Source of the DNA: Verrucomicrobiota bacterium
GTDB taxonomy: Bacteria > Verrucomicrobiota > Verrucomicrobiia > Opitutales > Seribacteraceae
Direction: 5' to 3'
DNA: 54,410 nt
Assembly: GCA_027622665.1 (NCBI GenBank)
Contig: JAQBYT010000028.1
Location: forward strand, 1 to 54,410
Every line of letters begins with the position of its first letter. The first letter of the stretch is position 1. Positions 9,001 to 15,000 of this stretch are shown piece after piece. Made by a program: the position numbers.

Positions 9001-12000
9001 TCGCGGCGAGGAATGCTTTCGTCTGCCTCACGGCACTGTTCAATCTTGGGTCAAAGGGGGTTACGCCCCTCCTTCCGACGAACCCGACGGATCCGCCATA
9101 TCGCTCGATGAGTCCTACCATGCCCTCGATGTCTCCAAGACCGCTACCGATCCGGAAGTGAAAGCCGCCTACCGCAAGAAATGCGCTGGCTTCCATCCCG
9201 ACAAGATCCAGTCCAAGGGGCTCCCGCCCGAGTTTACCACCTTCGCCAACGACCAGCTAGCTCGCATTAACCAAGCACACGATCTAATCCGCAAGGCCCG
9301 TGGGCTTTCCTAGTCGAACGAAGTTTTCGAGAGCCGTTTTCGAACTTTCCCGTTTATGCGAAAATGTCATCTGATCAGTCGGAGGCAACACAGTGCATTT
9401 TCTTAGCCTTGGTTATTTAATTGAAGGACTTGCTTTAAGTCTTAATCGGATACTTGACACTAGAATGTTTTTTTGCGTATCGGTTGTATATGCGTCTGCA
9501 TTCTTTGATCTTTTCCCTATTCTTCTTGTGCTTCGTTAATGTTCGTTTTGTCGAAGCAGAGCATGTGCCGAACGAGATCATCGTACGCTATCATGATGGC
9601 ACGAACCAATCGGAGAAGAATGCAACGGCGGTGAAGTTCAAACTCAACTTCAAGAAAGCCTTCAAGTTAACTAACGCAGTTCTCTATAATGTGGATGCCA
9701 AGGTATCCCTGAACGATCTCCAGGTCGAAATTGAGAAACTCAAATCCGTAAAGTACGTCAGTTTCAATCGAGTGTATAGAAAGCAATCTGTGGATCCCTT
9801 TTTCGCTACACAATGGTATCTGGATAACACCGGGCAATCGATTCGATGGTTTTCAGGCACTTCCGGAATCGACATAGGTTGGCTTGACGCCTTGGATCTA
9901 TACCAAAAGAAAGAAACTAGCTTTGTCGCTGTTTTTGACTCCGGTTTTGCGAAAGATCATTCGGAACTCATTGGACGCAATGCCTACCGTAATGGGGAAA
10001 GTGCGGGGATAGCTGGATTTGACGATGATAATAACGGATATATAGATGATATCAATGGTTGGGATTTCATCGACAACGACAACGACCCTTACGACTTCAA
10101 GGGACACGGCACGCAGGTTGCCGGTATTATTGCCGCGGTCAAAGATGGTAAAGGCATACAAGGCATAACTGATGATACTTTCATCTATCCCTTAAGAGTC
10201 TTGGATCGCGATGGAAGGGGAAATACTGCCGATATCGTCGAGGCGCTTGAATACGTCTACCAAAACCCTGGGGTCAGGATCATCAACATAAGTCTAGGTG
10301 GGGGTTCTTTTGATCCCTTGCTTGCGGAACAATTTAAAATGTTTGAAAAAGACGATAAAGTCTTAATCGTTGCTGCCGCAGGCAACGGTGGTCCTGATGG
10401 AAAGGGAGACAATAATGATTGGTTTCCTTATTATCCATCTACCTACAACTCTTCATCCATAATTTCGGTTGCCTCCATTGACCAGAAAGGAAATTTATCA
10501 AGTTTCTCAAACTATGGCTCTTCCACTGTCGACATTGCAGCTCCTGGTGAAAGTATTAGGGTAGCGACAGTTGAGAGGGAACTGAAGTTTACGCAGCAAG
10601 CAGATGGAAACGGTTGGATGGAGCAGTTTTTCTGGAGTCAATCTTCCAAGAGCTGGAAAAGAACCTATTATGGGATCACGCCTTGGATGGAAAGTCCTCG
10701 ATCTTACACTAACCATTCCACAGTTCAGCCAAGTTTTCTAGATCTCTCTAACATGAAAGATCCCAGATTGAAGCTGTCTTTGGACTTTTCACTTCTGAAC
10801 GGCGGTAAAACCTATTTGTCTGTCACAGCAAATCTGTCCGATTACAAGTATTTGAACACATTTTCTTATAGTAATACAGGAGGAACTGGAGTGTTCGAAT
10901 ATGACATTTCCGAATATGCGGGTGATGATTCAGTGTGGATTAAATTTTCTTTTTACCCGAATTCAACATCGGAACACTTTGATATAGGTCCCATCAAAGT
11001 TTATGATGTGGATACGAACTTCTGGGGTTCCGCTTATTATACATACAATGAAGGTACATCCTTCTCAGCTCCAATTGTCTCAGGAGTTGCGGCTTTAATA
11101 ATGTCTCATAGACCCGACCTGCTGGCTTCAGACATAAAGAAAATCCTGATGGATTCGGTAAAGCCTTTAACCAGTTTGAATGGCAAGGTGAAGTCGGGAG
11201 GCATGGTGAGGGCGGACAAAGCGTTGGAACTGGCCAATACCTACCTAACCAGATCCTCGATGACCTTTAACGCTGCTCCCGAAACGGAAATCACCGACAA
11301 TGGTGAAGTCAAGCAAATCGATCCAGCGGAATGGAATACTTCCGGTGAAAAACAAGTCATGGGCAGAATCACTGGTGCAGGTCATTACTTCGATGGAGAC
11401 AGAATCTCGATTGAGGCTATCCCGGAACAAGGTTTTCTATTCACGGGTTGGACGCAACCCGGCACGGATTGGACGAGTGATTCTGCCACCTACGCGTTTA
11501 CTTCCGGAGCAATAGACTATACCGTCACTGCAAACTTCGGTCCTGATCACAATGACACCGATGGCGACGGTTTAACTCACTACTGGGAAGCTTACTTCGG
11601 TACGGATCCAAATAATCCACATTCGGATAGCGACAGCCTTAACGATTTAGAGGAATGGCAAGTTTACTGGCAAGCGAAGCAATTGGAGCCAACCACTGAC
11701 GATTCGGTCAGGATTGCAAAACTTGAAGAGATTCTTGGTAAAAACTCTCACACATTAGGTCTTGCGGAAGGTAAGTCCTTGGTGACATCCAATCCGAGCA
11801 ACTACCAACTATTCACAGCGAGAGATTTAAACGCTTCCATAAAGCTGGCATCCGATACTGTTCACGCTGCGGCCTTGATCGAAGGAAAAGAAATAGGAAT
11901 TAATACCGTGAAGGCAAAGCCCTCGGATTTTGATTTGTTTACTTCCGAGGATTTAAATACCTCCGTTGAATCTGCAGTAACCGTGGCTCGGGGTTCCGCC

Positions 12001-15000
12001 CTCGAGGAGGGGAAATCCTTAGTGACGAAAAATCCCAGTGGCTTTGACTTATACACGACGAGCGATTTGAACGCTTCCATAAAGTTGGCATCCGATACGG
12101 TTCACGCTGCGGCCTTGATCGAAGGAAGGAACTCAGGAATTGAAACCGTGATGACAAAGCCCTCGGATTTTGATTTGTTCACCTTGGAAGATTTAAATGT
12201 CACTGTTGAATCTGCGGTAACCGAGGCTAGGAGTTCCGCTTTGAATGAAGGGAAGTCGTTGGTAAAAGCGAACCCCGGAAACTTTGGTCTATACTCAGCT
12301 TCTGATTTGAACGCCTCTTTACATCAAGCATCCGAAACTGCTCATGCTTCGGCCTTGATCGAAGGAAGGAACTCAGGAATTGAAACCGTGATGGCAACGC
12401 CCTCGGATTTTGATTTGTTTACCTCTGAAGATTTAAATGTCACTGTTGAATCTGCGGTAACCGAGGCTAGGAGTTTCGCTTTGGATGAAGGGAAGTCGTT
12501 GGTAAAAGCGAACCCCGGAAACTTTGGTCTATACTCAGCTTCTGATTTGAACGCCTCTTTAAATCAAGCATCCGAAACTGCTCATGCTTCGGCTTTGATC
12601 TTGGGAAAAGGCATAGGAATAGAGTTAGTTCTTTCGAACCCTGTATCTTTCGGATTAAAGCAAGTCTTGGGGGAAGTCGGTGCCACGCCGCATACCCTCA
12701 ACTGGTACTACCAACCCGATTGGGGCTGGCTCTGGACGAACAAACAAACCTTCCCTTATGTCTACCGCACCGGATCGGCAGGCAAAACTCCTGGCTGGCT
12801 CTACTTCAAGGAAGGCTCTTCGGATCCAATAGAGTACTACGAATACGGTTCGGAGAAGTGGGTGACGCTCGAGTAAGGCATTACTCTTCCACGAATTTGC
12901 CGTCGAGCATGGGAAGGCGGCGATCGCAGCGTTTTGCGAGCTCGGGATTGTGGGTGACTAAGATGACGGCGGGGCCGTCCTCTCGGGCGAATTTGAGAAG
13001 GAGGTCAAATACGCGATCGGAATTGGCGGCGTCGAGGTTGCCAGTGGGTTCGTCGGCCAAGATGAGGTCGGGAGAGTTGGCGAGTGCTCGGGCGATGGCT
13101 ACCCGTTGTTGCTCGCCGCCGGAGAGCTTGTTGACGAAGCGGTCGGCCTTATCGGCGAGGCCAAGATGGTCAAGAAACTTGTCGGCTCGGGCGAGAGCTT
13201 CTACGGCCGGTTTGCCTGCCTTGCGGAGGGGCAAGGCGACGTTTTCTCGTGCGGTGAATTCCTTAATTAGGAAGTGAAACTGAAAGACGAAACCAATGCT
13301 TTCGTTGCGGAGGGCGGTACGGGTGGGATCGTCGGCTTTAGTCATGGGCTTGCCGCGGAGGTATATTTCACCTGAGTCGGGCTGGTCAAGCAAGCCTAGG
13401 AGGTAGAGCATGGTGCTCTTGCCGCAGCCGGAAGGACCGACGATGGCGGTTACCTCCCCTGCCCTTGCCTCAAAGGATACGCCCCGAAGGGCTAACACCC
13501 TACCCTCGCCTTCCCCGAAGGAATGGCTCAGGTTTTCCACGCGAAGAATCGGCGTGTCGCCATGGACTTTATCGTTCACAAGGTTTCGCGGATGATTTTG
13601 GCTGGTTCTATGCGGGCTGCTCGACGGGCTGGTATCCAGCTGGCTATCCCCACGACGACGATGGCGATGGCGACGGCCCAGAGATAATGGGATATGTCCC
13701 AGTTTACCACGAAGCTATCGGTGGAGAATACTCCTCGTATGCGTAGGGGTATGCGTGAGATACCGAAGGTGGCGGCAGCGGCGAGGAGGCAGCCCAGGAC
13801 TATGCCCAAAGCAAGCACGAGAGCTCCTTGCCAGAGGAATATGCGGGAGACGTCTCCTGGAGTGAAACCCATGGAACGCAGGATGGCCACGTCGCGTGTC
13901 TTCTCGATGACCATGATGGCGAAGACGTTGAACATGCCCAGACCGGACAAGAGGATAATGGTGGAAACGGTGATGGCGGAGGAGACTCGGAGGGCTTTGA
14001 ATACGTCGAGCCACACTTTTTCCCGTTCCTGCCAACTGACCACGCGGTGCGCGAAAGTCTCCTGCATCTGGGCGGCCACGGCAGGCGCGTCTTCGGGTTC
14101 GCGAATCCCCACTTGAAAGACTGAGCCTCCGTGCGGATTGCGTAGAAAGGAGCGGGCGGTGGATAGATCGAGGTAGATGCGACTTTTGTCGATTTGACTG
14201 ACGCCTGTTTCGAATATGCCCGCTACGCGAAGGTGGAGCGACTCGTGGGAACCGGCTAGAATGACGCGATCACCGGGTTCCAGCCGAAGGCGTTCGGCGA
14301 TGCGGTTGCCCACAAGGATGCCCAGCCGGTCGTCCCGGAAGTCCTTTATTCCGCCCTGAATGACCTGATCTTCCAAATCCGATACGGCGATATGGTCACT
14401 TGCCCTTATGCCGTGTATGCGAACGGAGTGAGAGCGTGAACCCGTGTCGAGGACGCCGGCTCCCTCGAGAATTTCCGAAACGCCAGTGACTCCAGTGAAC
14501 TCCGCTGTCGCCTTTCGGAGTTCTTCGGGGTACTCGATGCCCTCGACGTAGCGGGCGCCTTCACGAGAGCGGAAAACAAAGCGCACCCGACCATCGTCGG
14601 AGACCTTGGTCACAGTACCGTCTACGTCTTGAAAGCGATCGGATACTCGAATGGCGCCATTCGTACCGAGAATTGTGCGAATGAAGAAGGTCTCGAAACC
14701 GGAAGTCTGGGCTTGAGTAACGATGAAGAAAGCTATTCCGAACACGATACCGAGCAAGCTCATCCCCATAGCCCGTTTTCGGGCCATCACGTATCGCAGG
14801 GCGACTTGAAGCGACAGGATCACTTGCCACCGACGGGGACGGGTTTGACTTTCTGGCCGTCGCGAAAGAGGTGTGGGGTTTCCACGATTACCTGTTCACC
14901 TGCCTCCAGTCCATCGAGAATCTCGGCGGTGAGCAGGTTCCGAGCCCCTACCTTGACCTCACGTGCTTCGGCTACCCCGTTTATTACGACAAACACGGCG

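What a model noticed while it worked through the whole genome (the two positions that open the first line are those of the whole stretch)
9490..12876. Undescribed ~58-aa Trp-rich C-terminal tag (WxW-GWxWT-YPYxY-GWxYF-YxY-W) on 36 secreted enzymes, adhesins and giants
A ~58-residue aromatic module with the pattern W-x-W...G-W-x-W-T...Y-P-Y-x-Y...G-W-x-Y-F...F-Y-x-Y...W, covered by no Pfam or NCBIfam model, ends 24 of 36 carrier proteins within 8 residues of their C-terminus; carriers are otherwise unrelated (subtilisin, trypsin, reprolysin, PPIase, M23 peptidase, cadherin/Big_9 adhesins, 2-4.5 k-aa giants, the DGNFT poly-sequon protein g02947). I read it as a new C-terminal sorting or cell-surface retention domain of marine PVC bacteria, functionally equivalent to the T9SS C-terminal domain or to choline-binding/SLH anchors. 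New would be a family-wide surface-display signal, usable to predict the exoproteome and to display cargo on these bacteria.
Evidence so far: Regex then HMM built from 16 instances: hmmsearch of proteins.faa gives 36 proteins at domain E<=1e-2 (best 1e-22), 24 ending <=8 aa from the C-terminus, 12 internal or followed by more domains. Unbiased all-vs-all BLAST of the last 70 aa of every protein, full-length paralogues removed, recovers the same set as the largest cluster without a Pfam name (23 members; call 130). hmmscan of nine 100-aa C-termini (g00644, g01387, g03212, g03627, g00949, g03133, g02864, g00478, g00536): no Pfam and no NCBIfam family at E<0.01 over the tag. W11, W19, P28, W42, W63 invariant in 9 aligned tags. 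AlphaFold on that alignment: pLDDT 81, six short strands = three beta-hairpins; Foldseek PDB no hit better t [...]
(Added by a program. Inside this text positions count along the whole contig: contig position 1 is position 1 of the stretch shown here. "Call 12" and the like, gene names such as g00115 and contig names such as C1 are that model's own, and its searches are not shown. The text may have been shortened before it was handed on; [...] marks where a part breaks off. The agent that wrote the report below was given it as the finding of a first reader that could run no searches.)

Follow-up and report, generated by a model that had tools for sequence, protein, structure and literature searches.

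The report
Unnamed Trp-rich hairpin domain of Opitutales exoproteins
A secreted subtilisin-like protease of a marine Opitutales bacterium ends in a tryptophan-rich beta-hairpin module that about 35 other exported proteins of the genome also carry, that no domain database names, and that most likely works as a shared binding or tethering module, not as a secretion signal.

Summary
The gene at 9490..12876 (+) encodes a 1,128-aa exported S8 protease. Its last ~65 residues match no Pfam or NCBIfam model.

Three corrections:
- The real domain is ~95 aa (eight predicted strands, pLDDT 90). The window's "58-aa tag" is a short subfamily, shared here only with a cyclophilin.
- The range found is a few families of Opitutales. 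PVC phyla other than Verrucomicrobiota were not searched.
- Copies also occur at N-termini, internally and in tandem. That fits a modular binding domain better than a C-terminal sorting signal.

The family is large: 4,371 cluster representatives at E<=1e-3. The sources that name its members call them "hypothetical" or name only the carrier's other domains. No solved structure matches clearly. The nearest are OCRE domains, below threshold in both sequence and structure.

Carriers are mostly cadherin/Ig adhesins, proteases and prolyl isomerases. Only 1 of 81 carriers checked outside this genome has a glycoside hydrolase domain.

No partner gene was found, and exosortase does not track the domain.

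My best reading is a non-covalent tether to a common ligand, probably in the cell's own envelope (confidence about 0.4). Function is untested.

The parts
9490..12876 (+). Gene for a 1,128-aa exported subtilisin-like (S8) protease that carries the short form of the Trp-rich module at its C-terminus (stop TAA at 12874-12876)
   Evidence: ORF list and translation; Pfam Peptidase_S8 E 3.7e-52; coordinates
9490..9558 (+). Putative Sec signal peptide (aa 1-23, MRLHSLIFSLFFLCFVNVRFVEA)
   Evidence: Read from the sequence; crude hydropathy script; no trained predictor was available
9553..9768 (+). Fervidolysin-like N-terminal propeptide (aa 22-93)
   Evidence: Pfam PF22148 E 7.2e-5
9919..11061 (+). 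S8 catalytic domain with an insertion. Triad D150 (9937-9939), H206 (10105-10107), S524 (11059-11061)
   Evidence: Pfam PF00082 in two stretches, the best at aa 144-378; motif positions
11359..11541 (+). Flg_new_2 (divergent InlB B-repeat) domain, aa 624-684. This domain often sits next to the Trp-rich module in other carriers
   Evidence: Pfam PF18998 E 3.7e-11; adjacency in other carriers
11554..11619 (+). Bacterial TSP3 (calcium-binding type) repeat, aa 689-710
   Evidence: Pfam PF18884 E 2.7e-6
11824..12600 (+). Tandem array of 3.2 copies of a 240-bp (80-aa) unit, 85% matches, forming a spacer of unknown family just before the tag
   Evidence: Tandem Repeats Finder; only sub-threshold Pfam rows there, Linocin_M18 0.035 and CdrL_M 0.24
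12679..12873 (+). Short form (65 aa, six predicted strands) of the Trp-rich hairpin domain: GATPHTLNWYYQPDWGWLWT...KWVTLE. It matches positions 36-92 of the 98-position family model

Best explanation
The tail of this S8 protease is the short, three-hairpin form of an autonomous ~95-aa domain. The domain is built by repeating an aromatic beta-hairpin unit (W-x-[YW]-H-x-x-L-G-W-L-[YW]).

I read the domain as a non-catalytic binding module that marine Opitutales attach, mostly as the last domain, to Sec-exported proteases, prolyl isomerases and cadherin/Ig-type adhesins. It would hold these proteins non-covalently at one common ligand. The most likely ligand is a lineage-specific polymer of the cell's own envelope or matrix (LPS, capsule or exopolysaccharide), which would keep the enzymes and fibres on or near the cell. 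In function this resembles choline-binding, SLH or GW anchors.

Shown here: the family, its extent, its internal repeat, its positions in proteins, its carriers, its taxonomic range and its lack of a database name.

Inferred: that it binds anything at all, what the ligand is, and that the result is retention at the cell surface.
For: - The domain is real, recurrent and under selection. There are 36 carriers in this genome, with copies only 26-57% identical to each other, and 5-41 matches in each of 18 of 18 genomes of the same family. The global library holds 4,371 cluster representatives at E<=1e-3.
- It is predicted to fold on its own: AlphaFold pLDDT 90.3, pTM 0.80, eight strands.
- It is a hairpin repeat. 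hhalign of the N-half against the C-half aligns hairpin 2 with hairpin 3 at 92% probability, E 5.6e-7. Composition is 10.1% Trp and 28% aromatic, against 1.5% Trp in long ORFs of the genome.
- It behaves as a movable module, not as a positional signal. Twelve of 36 copies are internal. One sits at the N-terminus before a YHYH domain (C47:78073-80142). Elsewhere it precedes cyclophilin+FKBP (P0021), TPR (P0036), FGE-sulfatase (P0053) and thioredoxin-like domains (P0122). Eight of 150 top representatives carry two copies.
- Carriers look exported. About 22 of the 26 carriers with an intact 5' end have a basic-then-hydrophobic N-terminus, by a crude script and by eye.
- Carriers are not CAZymes. 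Of 81 carriers checked elsewhere, 36 have cadherin domains and 1 has a glycoside hydrolase, GH10. In this genome the only such domain is an alpha-amylase domain inside a 5,008-aa giant.
- The range is narrow, which suits a lineage-specific ligand. Matches occur in 18 of 18 genomes of the family, 2 of 12 other families of the order, and 5 of 250 other genomes in a phylum sample. Named close relatives are Opitutia/Opitutales MAGs.
Against: - There is no experiment and no ligand.
- No structural match to any known binding module: Foldseek found nothing at E<=1e-3 and the best VIA Z was 4.2.
- The conserved residues are almost all aromatic at alternating positions. They may simply be the fold's core rather than a binding face, and I could not inspect coordinates.
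- The strong C-terminal bias (24 of 36 here, 125 of 150 elsewhere) is also what a secretion tag would show.
- Nothing here separates binding to the cell's own envelope from binding to an external substrate.
- The short form of the window's own gene folds with only moderate confidence on its own (pLDDT 64.8).
Confidence: 0.42

Rival explanations
1. Substrate-targeting module. The domain binds an external polymer (algal or particle polysaccharide, or a proline-rich/polyproline-II protein such as algal wall glycoproteins) and brings proteases, prolyl isomerases and adhesins to it. It would work as a CBM or as an OCRE/WW-like peptide binder.
For: - The architecture is an aromatic hairpin repeat.
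- There is weak sequence and fold likeness to OCRE domains, which to my knowledge bind proline-rich motifs (recalled, not checked here). Pfam OCRE hits 7 of 34 copies, best E 0.0066. RBM10 OCRE (2mxw) gives Z 4.0, 54 aligned, 22% identity; RBM5 OCRE (5mfy) gives Z 3.5, 23% identity. One copy hits WW at E 4e-4.
- Carriers include Pro-directed enzymes (cyclophilin, cyclophilin+FKBP) and many proteases.
- Tandem copies suit avidity for a polymer.
Against: - The OCRE hits score 10-17 bits against a cut-off of 24.7 and fall in different registers of the domain, so they may reflect only the aromatic periodicity.
- A Z of 3.5-4.2 is within the noise range the tool describes.
- Only 1 of 81 carriers has a glycoside hydrolase.
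- The narrow taxonomic range is unusual for modules that target common marine substrates.
Confidence: 0.25
2. Secretion or sorting tag. The domain is recognised by a still unknown outer-membrane export or attachment machinery of these Opitutales, as the T9SS C-terminal domain is in Bacteroidota.
For: - Tens of copies per genome on Sec-dependent proteases, adhesins and giants.
- The C-terminal position dominates.
- Eight of the stop-terminated ORFs of 2,000 aa or more carry it.
- How such giants cross the outer membrane in this phylum is not known to me.
Against: - Internal, N-terminal and tandem copies exist.
- No recurrent neighbour gene looks like a translocon or a sortase-type peptidase.
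- Exosortase is present in carriers and non-carriers alike, 23 of 31 genomes.
- None of the 34 copies matches the T9SS CTD model.
- There is no hydrophobic or basic tail of the PEP-CTERM or LPXTG kind (sequence).
Confidence: 0.15
3. Self-association or structural end-cap. The domain makes carriers stick to each other (matrix or co-aggregation) or merely caps and stabilises the end of repetitive fibres.
For: - It most often follows cadherin/Ig/TSP3 repeats at the end of fibre-like proteins: 36 of 81 carriers have cadherin domains.
- An aromatic-rich face could pair with another sheet (inference).
Against: - It also sits on small globular enzymes (cyclophilin, trypsin-like, M23), where a fibre cap makes no sense.
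- No evidence of oligomerisation was obtained here.
Confidence: 0.08

Closest known systems
T9SS C-terminal domain (Por_Secre_tail, TIGR04183 / PF18962) of Bacteroidota
   Same: A folded beta domain of ~70-100 aa. It occurs tens of times per genome, usually as the last domain of Sec-dependent proteases, adhesins and giant proteins. It is restricted to one lineage.
   Different: - No sequence match: 0 of 34 copies at E<=10.
- It is not obligatorily terminal and tandem copies occur.
- No SprA was found in the genome, though the control genomes did not ring either.
- The predicted topology is an eight-strand aromatic hairpin meander.
OCRE domain (PF17780; RBM5/RBM10, PDB 5mfy, 2mxw)
   Same: A small all-beta domain made of short aromatic-rich hairpins. 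It gives the best-looking small-domain structural rows (Z 4.0 and 3.5, 22-23% identity) and is the only Pfam family hit by several copies (7 of 34).
   Different: - All hits fall below the gathering score (10-17 bits against 24.7) and in inconsistent registers.
- OCRE is, to my knowledge, a eukaryotic nuclear domain rich in Tyr, whereas this one is extracellular, bacterial and rich in Trp.
- This domain has eight strands, not six; the short form has six.
Non-covalent surface anchors built of aromatic repeats (choline-binding repeats PF01473, GW modules, SLH, WxL domains)
   Same: The proposed working principle is the same: a repeated aromatic module, usually C-terminal, that tethers diverse exported enzymes and adhesins to an envelope polymer.
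   Different: - None of these families matched at E<=10.
- Those systems are described (from my own knowledge) mainly in Gram-positive envelopes, whereas this is a diderm verrucomicrobium.
- The ligand here is unknown.
Tripartite C-terminal sorting signals (PEP-CTERM/exosortase, LPXTG/sortase, GlyGly-CTERM)
   Same: Many-to-one logic: many cargo proteins per genome share one C-terminal element.
   Different: - There is no motif-plus-transmembrane-helix-plus-basic-tail; the tail is a soluble beta domain ending in ...WVTLE.
- Exosortase occurs in both carrier and non-carrier genomes.
- The PEP-CTERM model gave no hit at E<=0.001 in this genome, and the search had no positive control.

Membership tests
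Peptidase S8 (subtilase), for the carrier gene | Match to PF00082 above the gathering score, and an Asp/His/Ser triad in the D-S-G, H-G-T and G-T-S motifs | tested here: met
   177.9 bits against a cut-off of 21.8; D150, H206 and S524 located
T9SS C-terminal domain (TIGR04183 / PF18962) | Sequence match to the CTD models | tested here: not met
   0 of 34 copies hit either library's CTD model at E<=10. The tail of the window's gene hits nothing at E<=1
T9SS C-terminal domain (TIGR04183 / PF18962) | Always the extreme C-terminal domain of the cargo | tested here: not met
   12 of 36 copies in this genome are internal or N-terminal. 25 of 150 top representatives end more than 8 aa before the C-terminus
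T9SS C-terminal domain (TIGR04183 / PF18962) | Presence of the T9SS translocon (SprA and partners) in the genome | tested here: inconclusive
   TIGR04189 found nothing in G000, but it rang in none of the 14 control genomes either. Other components were not searched
OCRE domain (PF17780) | Score at or above Pfam's gathering cut-off (24.7 bits) | tested here: not met
   7 of 34 copies hit at 10.1-16.9 bits, in differing registers
OCRE domain (PF17780) | Shared fold with solved OCRE domains | tested here: inconclusive
   VIA-align gives 2mxw Z 4.0, rmsd 3.6, 54 aligned, and 5mfy Z 3.5, rmsd 4.2, 57 aligned. Unrelated beta-barrels score alike. Foldseek found none at E<=1e-3
PEP-CTERM / other tripartite sorting signals | Signature motif followed by a transmembrane helix and a basic cluster at the extreme C-terminus | tested here: not met
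   The tails read directly end in a polar beta strand. The 16-residue hydropathy maximum over the last 40 aa stays at or below about 1.2 for tagged ORFs, against 2.97 for an untagged ORF with a real hydrophobic tail
PEP-CTERM / other tripartite sorting signals | Co-distribution with the sorting enzyme (exosortase) | tested here: not met
   PF09721 is present in 13 of 18 genomes of the carrier family, and also in 8 of the 10 order-level genomes without the domain
Choline-binding / cell-wall-binding repeats (PF01473 and relatives) | Sequence match to the repeat models | tested here: not met
   Not among the 5 families hit by any of 34 copies at E<=10
Carbohydrate-binding module | Habitual attachment to carbohydrate-active catalytic domains | tested here: not met
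   1 of 81 carriers checked elsewhere has a GH domain, GH10. In this genome the only one is an alpha-amylase domain in one giant
Carbohydrate-binding module | Demonstrated glycan binding | not testable with these tools
   Needs purified protein and glycan arrays

The most novel reading that the evidence does not exclude
The Trp-rich hairpin domain is the cargo tag of an undescribed surface-display pathway of marine Opitutales. A dedicated outer-membrane partner would recognise it and thereby export or fix dozens of proteases, isomerases and giant adhesins. This would be a verrucomicrobial counterpart of the T9SS C-terminal domain, with the short 'GATPHT...WVTLE' form as a second cargo class.
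Probability: 0.12. Interest if true: 0.85.

Novelty: new variant of a known kind. Interest (0 to 1): 0.55.

Why it matters
A single unnamed domain marks a large share of the predicted exoproteome of an abundant, mostly uncultured group of marine polysaccharide-degrading bacteria. It gives 5-41 matches per genome in the family. Eight of the stop-terminated ORFs of 2,000 aa or more in this genome carry it.

A curated model would improve annotation of thousands of "hypothetical" metagenome proteins. It would also give a simple marker for predicting which enzymes these cells keep at their surface.

If the ligand is an envelope polymer, the domain is a candidate display tag for this phylum. If it is a partner of an export machine, it points to an unknown secretion route for giant proteins in diderm PVC bacteria.

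The predicted fold had no clear counterpart among solved structures, so it is also a structural-genomics target.

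Tried and rejected
- Family-wide locus scan with the alignment. It failed with an error because no stretch was conserved enough. I used one domain instead and whole-genome searches.
- Cognate partner by neighbourhood. The recurrent neighbours of tagged genes are sulfatases, PQQ beta-propellers, DUF7133/HEAT/cytochrome c proteins and ABC ATPases. I took these to be common paralogue families of this genome without counting them genome-wide. FecR-domain proteins follow 4 cadherin-type carriers. None looks like a translocon or a sortase.
- Complementary distribution with exosortase. There is none.
- T9SS components. No SprA hit, and no control rang. One unrelated ORF (C5:60576-60797) matches Por_Secre_tail.
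- PEP-CTERM model in the genome. No hit, and no control rang, so this is uninformative.
- Homodimer prediction of the domain. The tool's verdict was 'no answer' (score 0.00, mark 0.42), so it is not evidence either way.
- Profile against PDB sequences. The only row is XepA at E 0.12, which I treat as chance.
- ESM Atlas. It returned only unnamed Verrucomicrobiota clusters, with low recognition (1412). It adds no function.
- Fold search with the short-form model. I did not run it because pLDDT 64.8 is too low to trust matches.
- Paper searches. I saw listings, titles and abstract starts only. None describes this module. The motif strings GWLWT and LGWLW matched only unrelated papers, and WFGxF and GWxWT matched none. 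I read no paper in full.
- Standalone small proteins made of the domain alone. The 25 candidates under 200 aa mostly begin inside upstream domains and look like gene-call fragments, so I do not claim a standalone form.

Full report
**What is at the coordinates**

The + strand carries one long ORF, 9454/9490..12876. From the ATG at 9490 it encodes 1,128 aa.

The N-terminus (MRLHSLIFSLFFLCFVNVRFVEA) looks like a Sec signal peptide. This is read from the sequence and from a crude hydropathy script; no trained predictor was available.

Pfam finds four domains:
- a fervidolysin-type propeptide, aa 22-93
- Peptidase_S8, E 3.7e-52, in two stretches around an insertion
- Flg_new_2, aa 624-684
- a bacterial TSP3 repeat, aa 689-710

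The catalytic D150, H206 and S524 sit in the usual motifs. A 240-bp unit repeated 3.2 times (11824-12600, 85% matches) encodes a spacer of unknown family.

The last 80 aa, scanned alone, hit no Pfam and no NCBIfam family at E<=1.

The neighbours are a sulfatase, a TerB-DnaJ protein, a convergent MacB-type pump, and respiratory genes. None suggests a link to the tag.

**Check of the observation**

I laid the genome (66 contigs, 4.52 Mb; the window is contig C15) and cut it into 45,126 stop-to-stop ORFs of at least 50 aa.
- jackhmmer from the tail converged on 35 ORFs with domain E<1e-5.
- A rebuilt model found 36 ORFs at E<=0.01.
- Of these, 24 have the domain ending within 2 residues of the stop and 12 do not.

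The carriers are as described: cyclophilin, reprolysin, trypsin-like and M23 peptidases, a YHYH protein, beta-propellers, RCC1 repeats, a CotH/alpha-amylase giant, and many cadherin/Big_9/Flg_new_2 adhesins of up to 5,008 aa. No Pfam family covers the tag in any of them.

Ten carriers are cut at contig edges. Of the other 26, about 22 have a basic-then-hydrophobic N-terminus.

**The real extent of the domain**

The consensus is GWxxSxWFGxFxxxxxxWxYHxxLGWLYx(9)WxWxxxLGWLWTxxxxYPxLYx(6)WLYx(10)FYxYxxxxW.

Against the 98-position model:
- 32 of 36 copies span it.
- One is truncated by the end of its ORF (C41:12474-12854).
- One is a weak partial hit (C55:474040-476469).
- Two cover only positions 34/36-92: the window's S8 and the cyclophilin at C22:39828-40895.

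The short form is a subfamily of its own.
- All 31 proteins P0191-P0221 from my two homologue searches have it, by my classification.
- Most carry a conserved GATPHT lead-in.
- Their carriers include S8, RCC1, endonuclease_1, LamG, PMP-repeat and cyclophilin proteins.
- Clear short-form matches, those starting at model positions 2-5, were seen only in genomes of the window's own family. At E<=1e-10 the model matched 16 of its 18 other genomes and 0 of 12 genomes of other families, and some of the weaker rows are full-length copies.

**Fold and internal structure**

- On the 34-copy alignment, AlphaFold gives pLDDT 90.3 and pTM 0.80, with eight short strands.
- On a 15-row short-form alignment it gives six strands, but only pLDDT 64.8 and pTM 0.45.
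- hhalign of the N-half against the C-half aligns hairpin 2 (WIYHexLGWLY) with hairpin 3 (WLWhexLGWLWT) at 92% probability, E 5.6e-7. The domain therefore grew by repeating one aromatic hairpin.
- The domain is 10.1% Trp and 28% aromatic, with a median pI of 5.1.
- Foldseek against the PDB finds nothing at E<=1e-3.
- VIA-align against 48,161 chains finds nothing with Z>=5. The top rows mix small beta-barrels (Z 3-4.2) with OCRE domains of RBM10 (2mxw: Z 4.0, rmsd 3.6, 54 aligned, 22% identity) and RBM5 (5mfy: Z 3.5, 23% identity).
- OCRE is also the only Pfam family hit by several copies (7 of 34). The scores are 10-17 bits against a cut-off of 24.7, and the hits fall in differing registers. 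I take this as likeness in kind, aromatic hairpin repeats, and not as membership.
- A profile search of PDB sequences gives only XepA at E 0.12.
- NCBIfam gives no shared hit.

**How widespread it is**

- Global library of 1.84 billion cluster representatives: 4,371 proteins match at E<=1e-3 and 1,919 at E<=1e-10.
- Names from the sources are 'hypothetical protein' or describe other domains of the carrier.
- ESM Atlas neighbours are unnamed Verrucomicrobiota clusters.
- Close named relatives are Opitutia/Opitutales MAGs.
- Of 30 related genomes, all 18 of the same family match, with 5-41 matches each. Of 12 other families in the order, 2 match: G024 with 28 matches and G022 with 3.
- In a sample of 250 further genomes of the phylum (at least 80% complete, at most 20 candidates scored per genome), 5 match. 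Three are in the same order. Two elsewhere match weakly.

The range actually found is 'some marine Opitutales families'. PVC phyla other than Verrucomicrobiota were not searched.

**Position and partners**

- In the 150 best representatives, the last copy ends within 8 aa of the C-terminus in 125, and 8 carry two copies.
- The domain also sits at the N-terminus (C47:78073-80142, before YHYH; P0021, before cyclophilin+FKBP) and in front of TPR, FGE-sulfatase and thioredoxin-like domains.
- In this genome, 8 of the 12 internal copies are followed by a Flg_new_2-type stretch. After that the protein either ends or continues with a ~230-aa domain shared by three carriers.
- Of 81 carriers of at least 300 aa from the global set, 36 have cadherin domains, 24 have no Pfam family, and 1 has a glycoside hydrolase, GH10.
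- Recurrent neighbours of tagged genes are families that recur near several tagged genes and that I took to be common paralogues of this genome (not counted genome-wide), plus FecR-domain proteins after four cadherin-type carriers. None is a plausible translocon or processing enzyme.
- Exosortase occurs in 23 of 31 genomes, including 8 of the 10 order-level genomes without the domain. The domain is therefore neither paired with it nor a substitute for it.
- SprA was not found, but the control genomes did not ring either.

**Interpretation**

The evidence shows an autonomous, repeat-built, non-catalytic domain that evolution moves between exported proteins and mostly places last. Internal, N-terminal and tandem copies, and the absence of any co-occurring machinery, argue against a strictly positional export signal. 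The near absence of CAZyme carriers argues against an ordinary CBM.

The narrow lineage range with many copies per genome fits a ligand that is itself lineage-specific. That is why I favour non-covalent tethering to the cell's own envelope or matrix (confidence 0.42). Behind it come binding to an external polymer or proline-rich protein (0.25), a tag for an unknown export or attachment route (0.15), and a self-association or capping role (0.08).

All four are inferences. Nothing here measures binding.

An earlier report of this scan on another Opitutales genome (e1-7446864) describes what appears to be the same module and reaches a similar conclusion. It is not independent evidence.

**Novelty**

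Five full-text searches, of which I saw only listings and abstract starts, returned no description of this module. Pfam, NCBIfam and PDB have no entry for it.

The kind of thing is familiar: a shared targeting or anchoring module on secreted proteins. The family, its predicted fold and its host lineage appear undescribed.

Noticed in passing
G000:C13:3-4151, C22:58126-73149, C61:181101-181847, C66:2-1333 (C-termini); also P0207, P0209: Four carriers end in the same extreme C-terminal peptide, (S/T)E(E/D)I(L/I)xx(V/I)FD-COOH, right after the Trp-rich domain plus a Flg_new_2 domain. They are the only 4 stop-terminated ORFs of the genome that match the pattern. Two metagenome proteins have it directly after the short form. 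It may be a second, very short terminal motif.
   Followed up: partly
window 11824-12600 (+): Inside the S8 gene, a 240-bp unit is repeated 3.2 times at 85% identity. It encodes 80-aa units (NPxxFxLYTxxDLNxS...EGxxxG...) with only sub-threshold Pfam rows. It is a spacer of unknown family between the TSP3 repeat and the tag.
   Followed up: partly
window 12884-17358 (-): A complete MacB-type tripartite pump (ABC ATPase, FtsX/MacB_PCD permease, HlyD-family adaptor, OEP outer-membrane factor) lies convergent to the S8 gene and starts 8 bp after its stop. Only its ABC-ATPase component recurs near other tagged genes, so I took the adjacency as chance.
   Followed up: partly
window 17465-29149 (-): Respiratory cluster: cbb3-type oxidase parts (FixO, COX1, cytochrome c) next to alternative complex III genes (ActD, NrfD, 4Fe-4S, multihaem cytochrome).
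   Followed up: no
G000:C5:60576-60797 (+): One ORF of 453 aa matches the T9SS C-terminal domain model TIGR04183 over its cut-off (43.4 bits, E 1.2e-10). This is in a verrucomicrobial genome where SprA was not found.
   Followed up: no
G000:C2:14216-54505 (-) and C28:2-13180 (+): A 13,430-aa ORF and a 4,393-aa ORF lack the Trp-rich domain. They share a different C-terminal ending (...GGxMERxV...xxLRLRIxTx), which suggests another shared terminal module for giants.
   Followed up: no
G000:C22:1600-3975, C12:48654-51023, C35:31702-33018, C57:14466-20915: Four cadherin-type carriers are each followed on the same strand by a paralogous large protein. Three of the four have a FecR domain. This looks like a conserved gene pair of unknown role.
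   Followed up: partly
G000:C41:12474-12854 (+): A 127-aa ORF with a signal-peptide-like start contains only the first two thirds of the domain (model positions 2-63) before a stop. It may be a broken copy or an assembly error.
   Followed up: no
window 10001-12000 and 1-2000: The body of the S8 gene has lower G+C (0.45) than its flanks (0.53-0.54). The first 2 kb of the window has 0.425.
   Followed up: no
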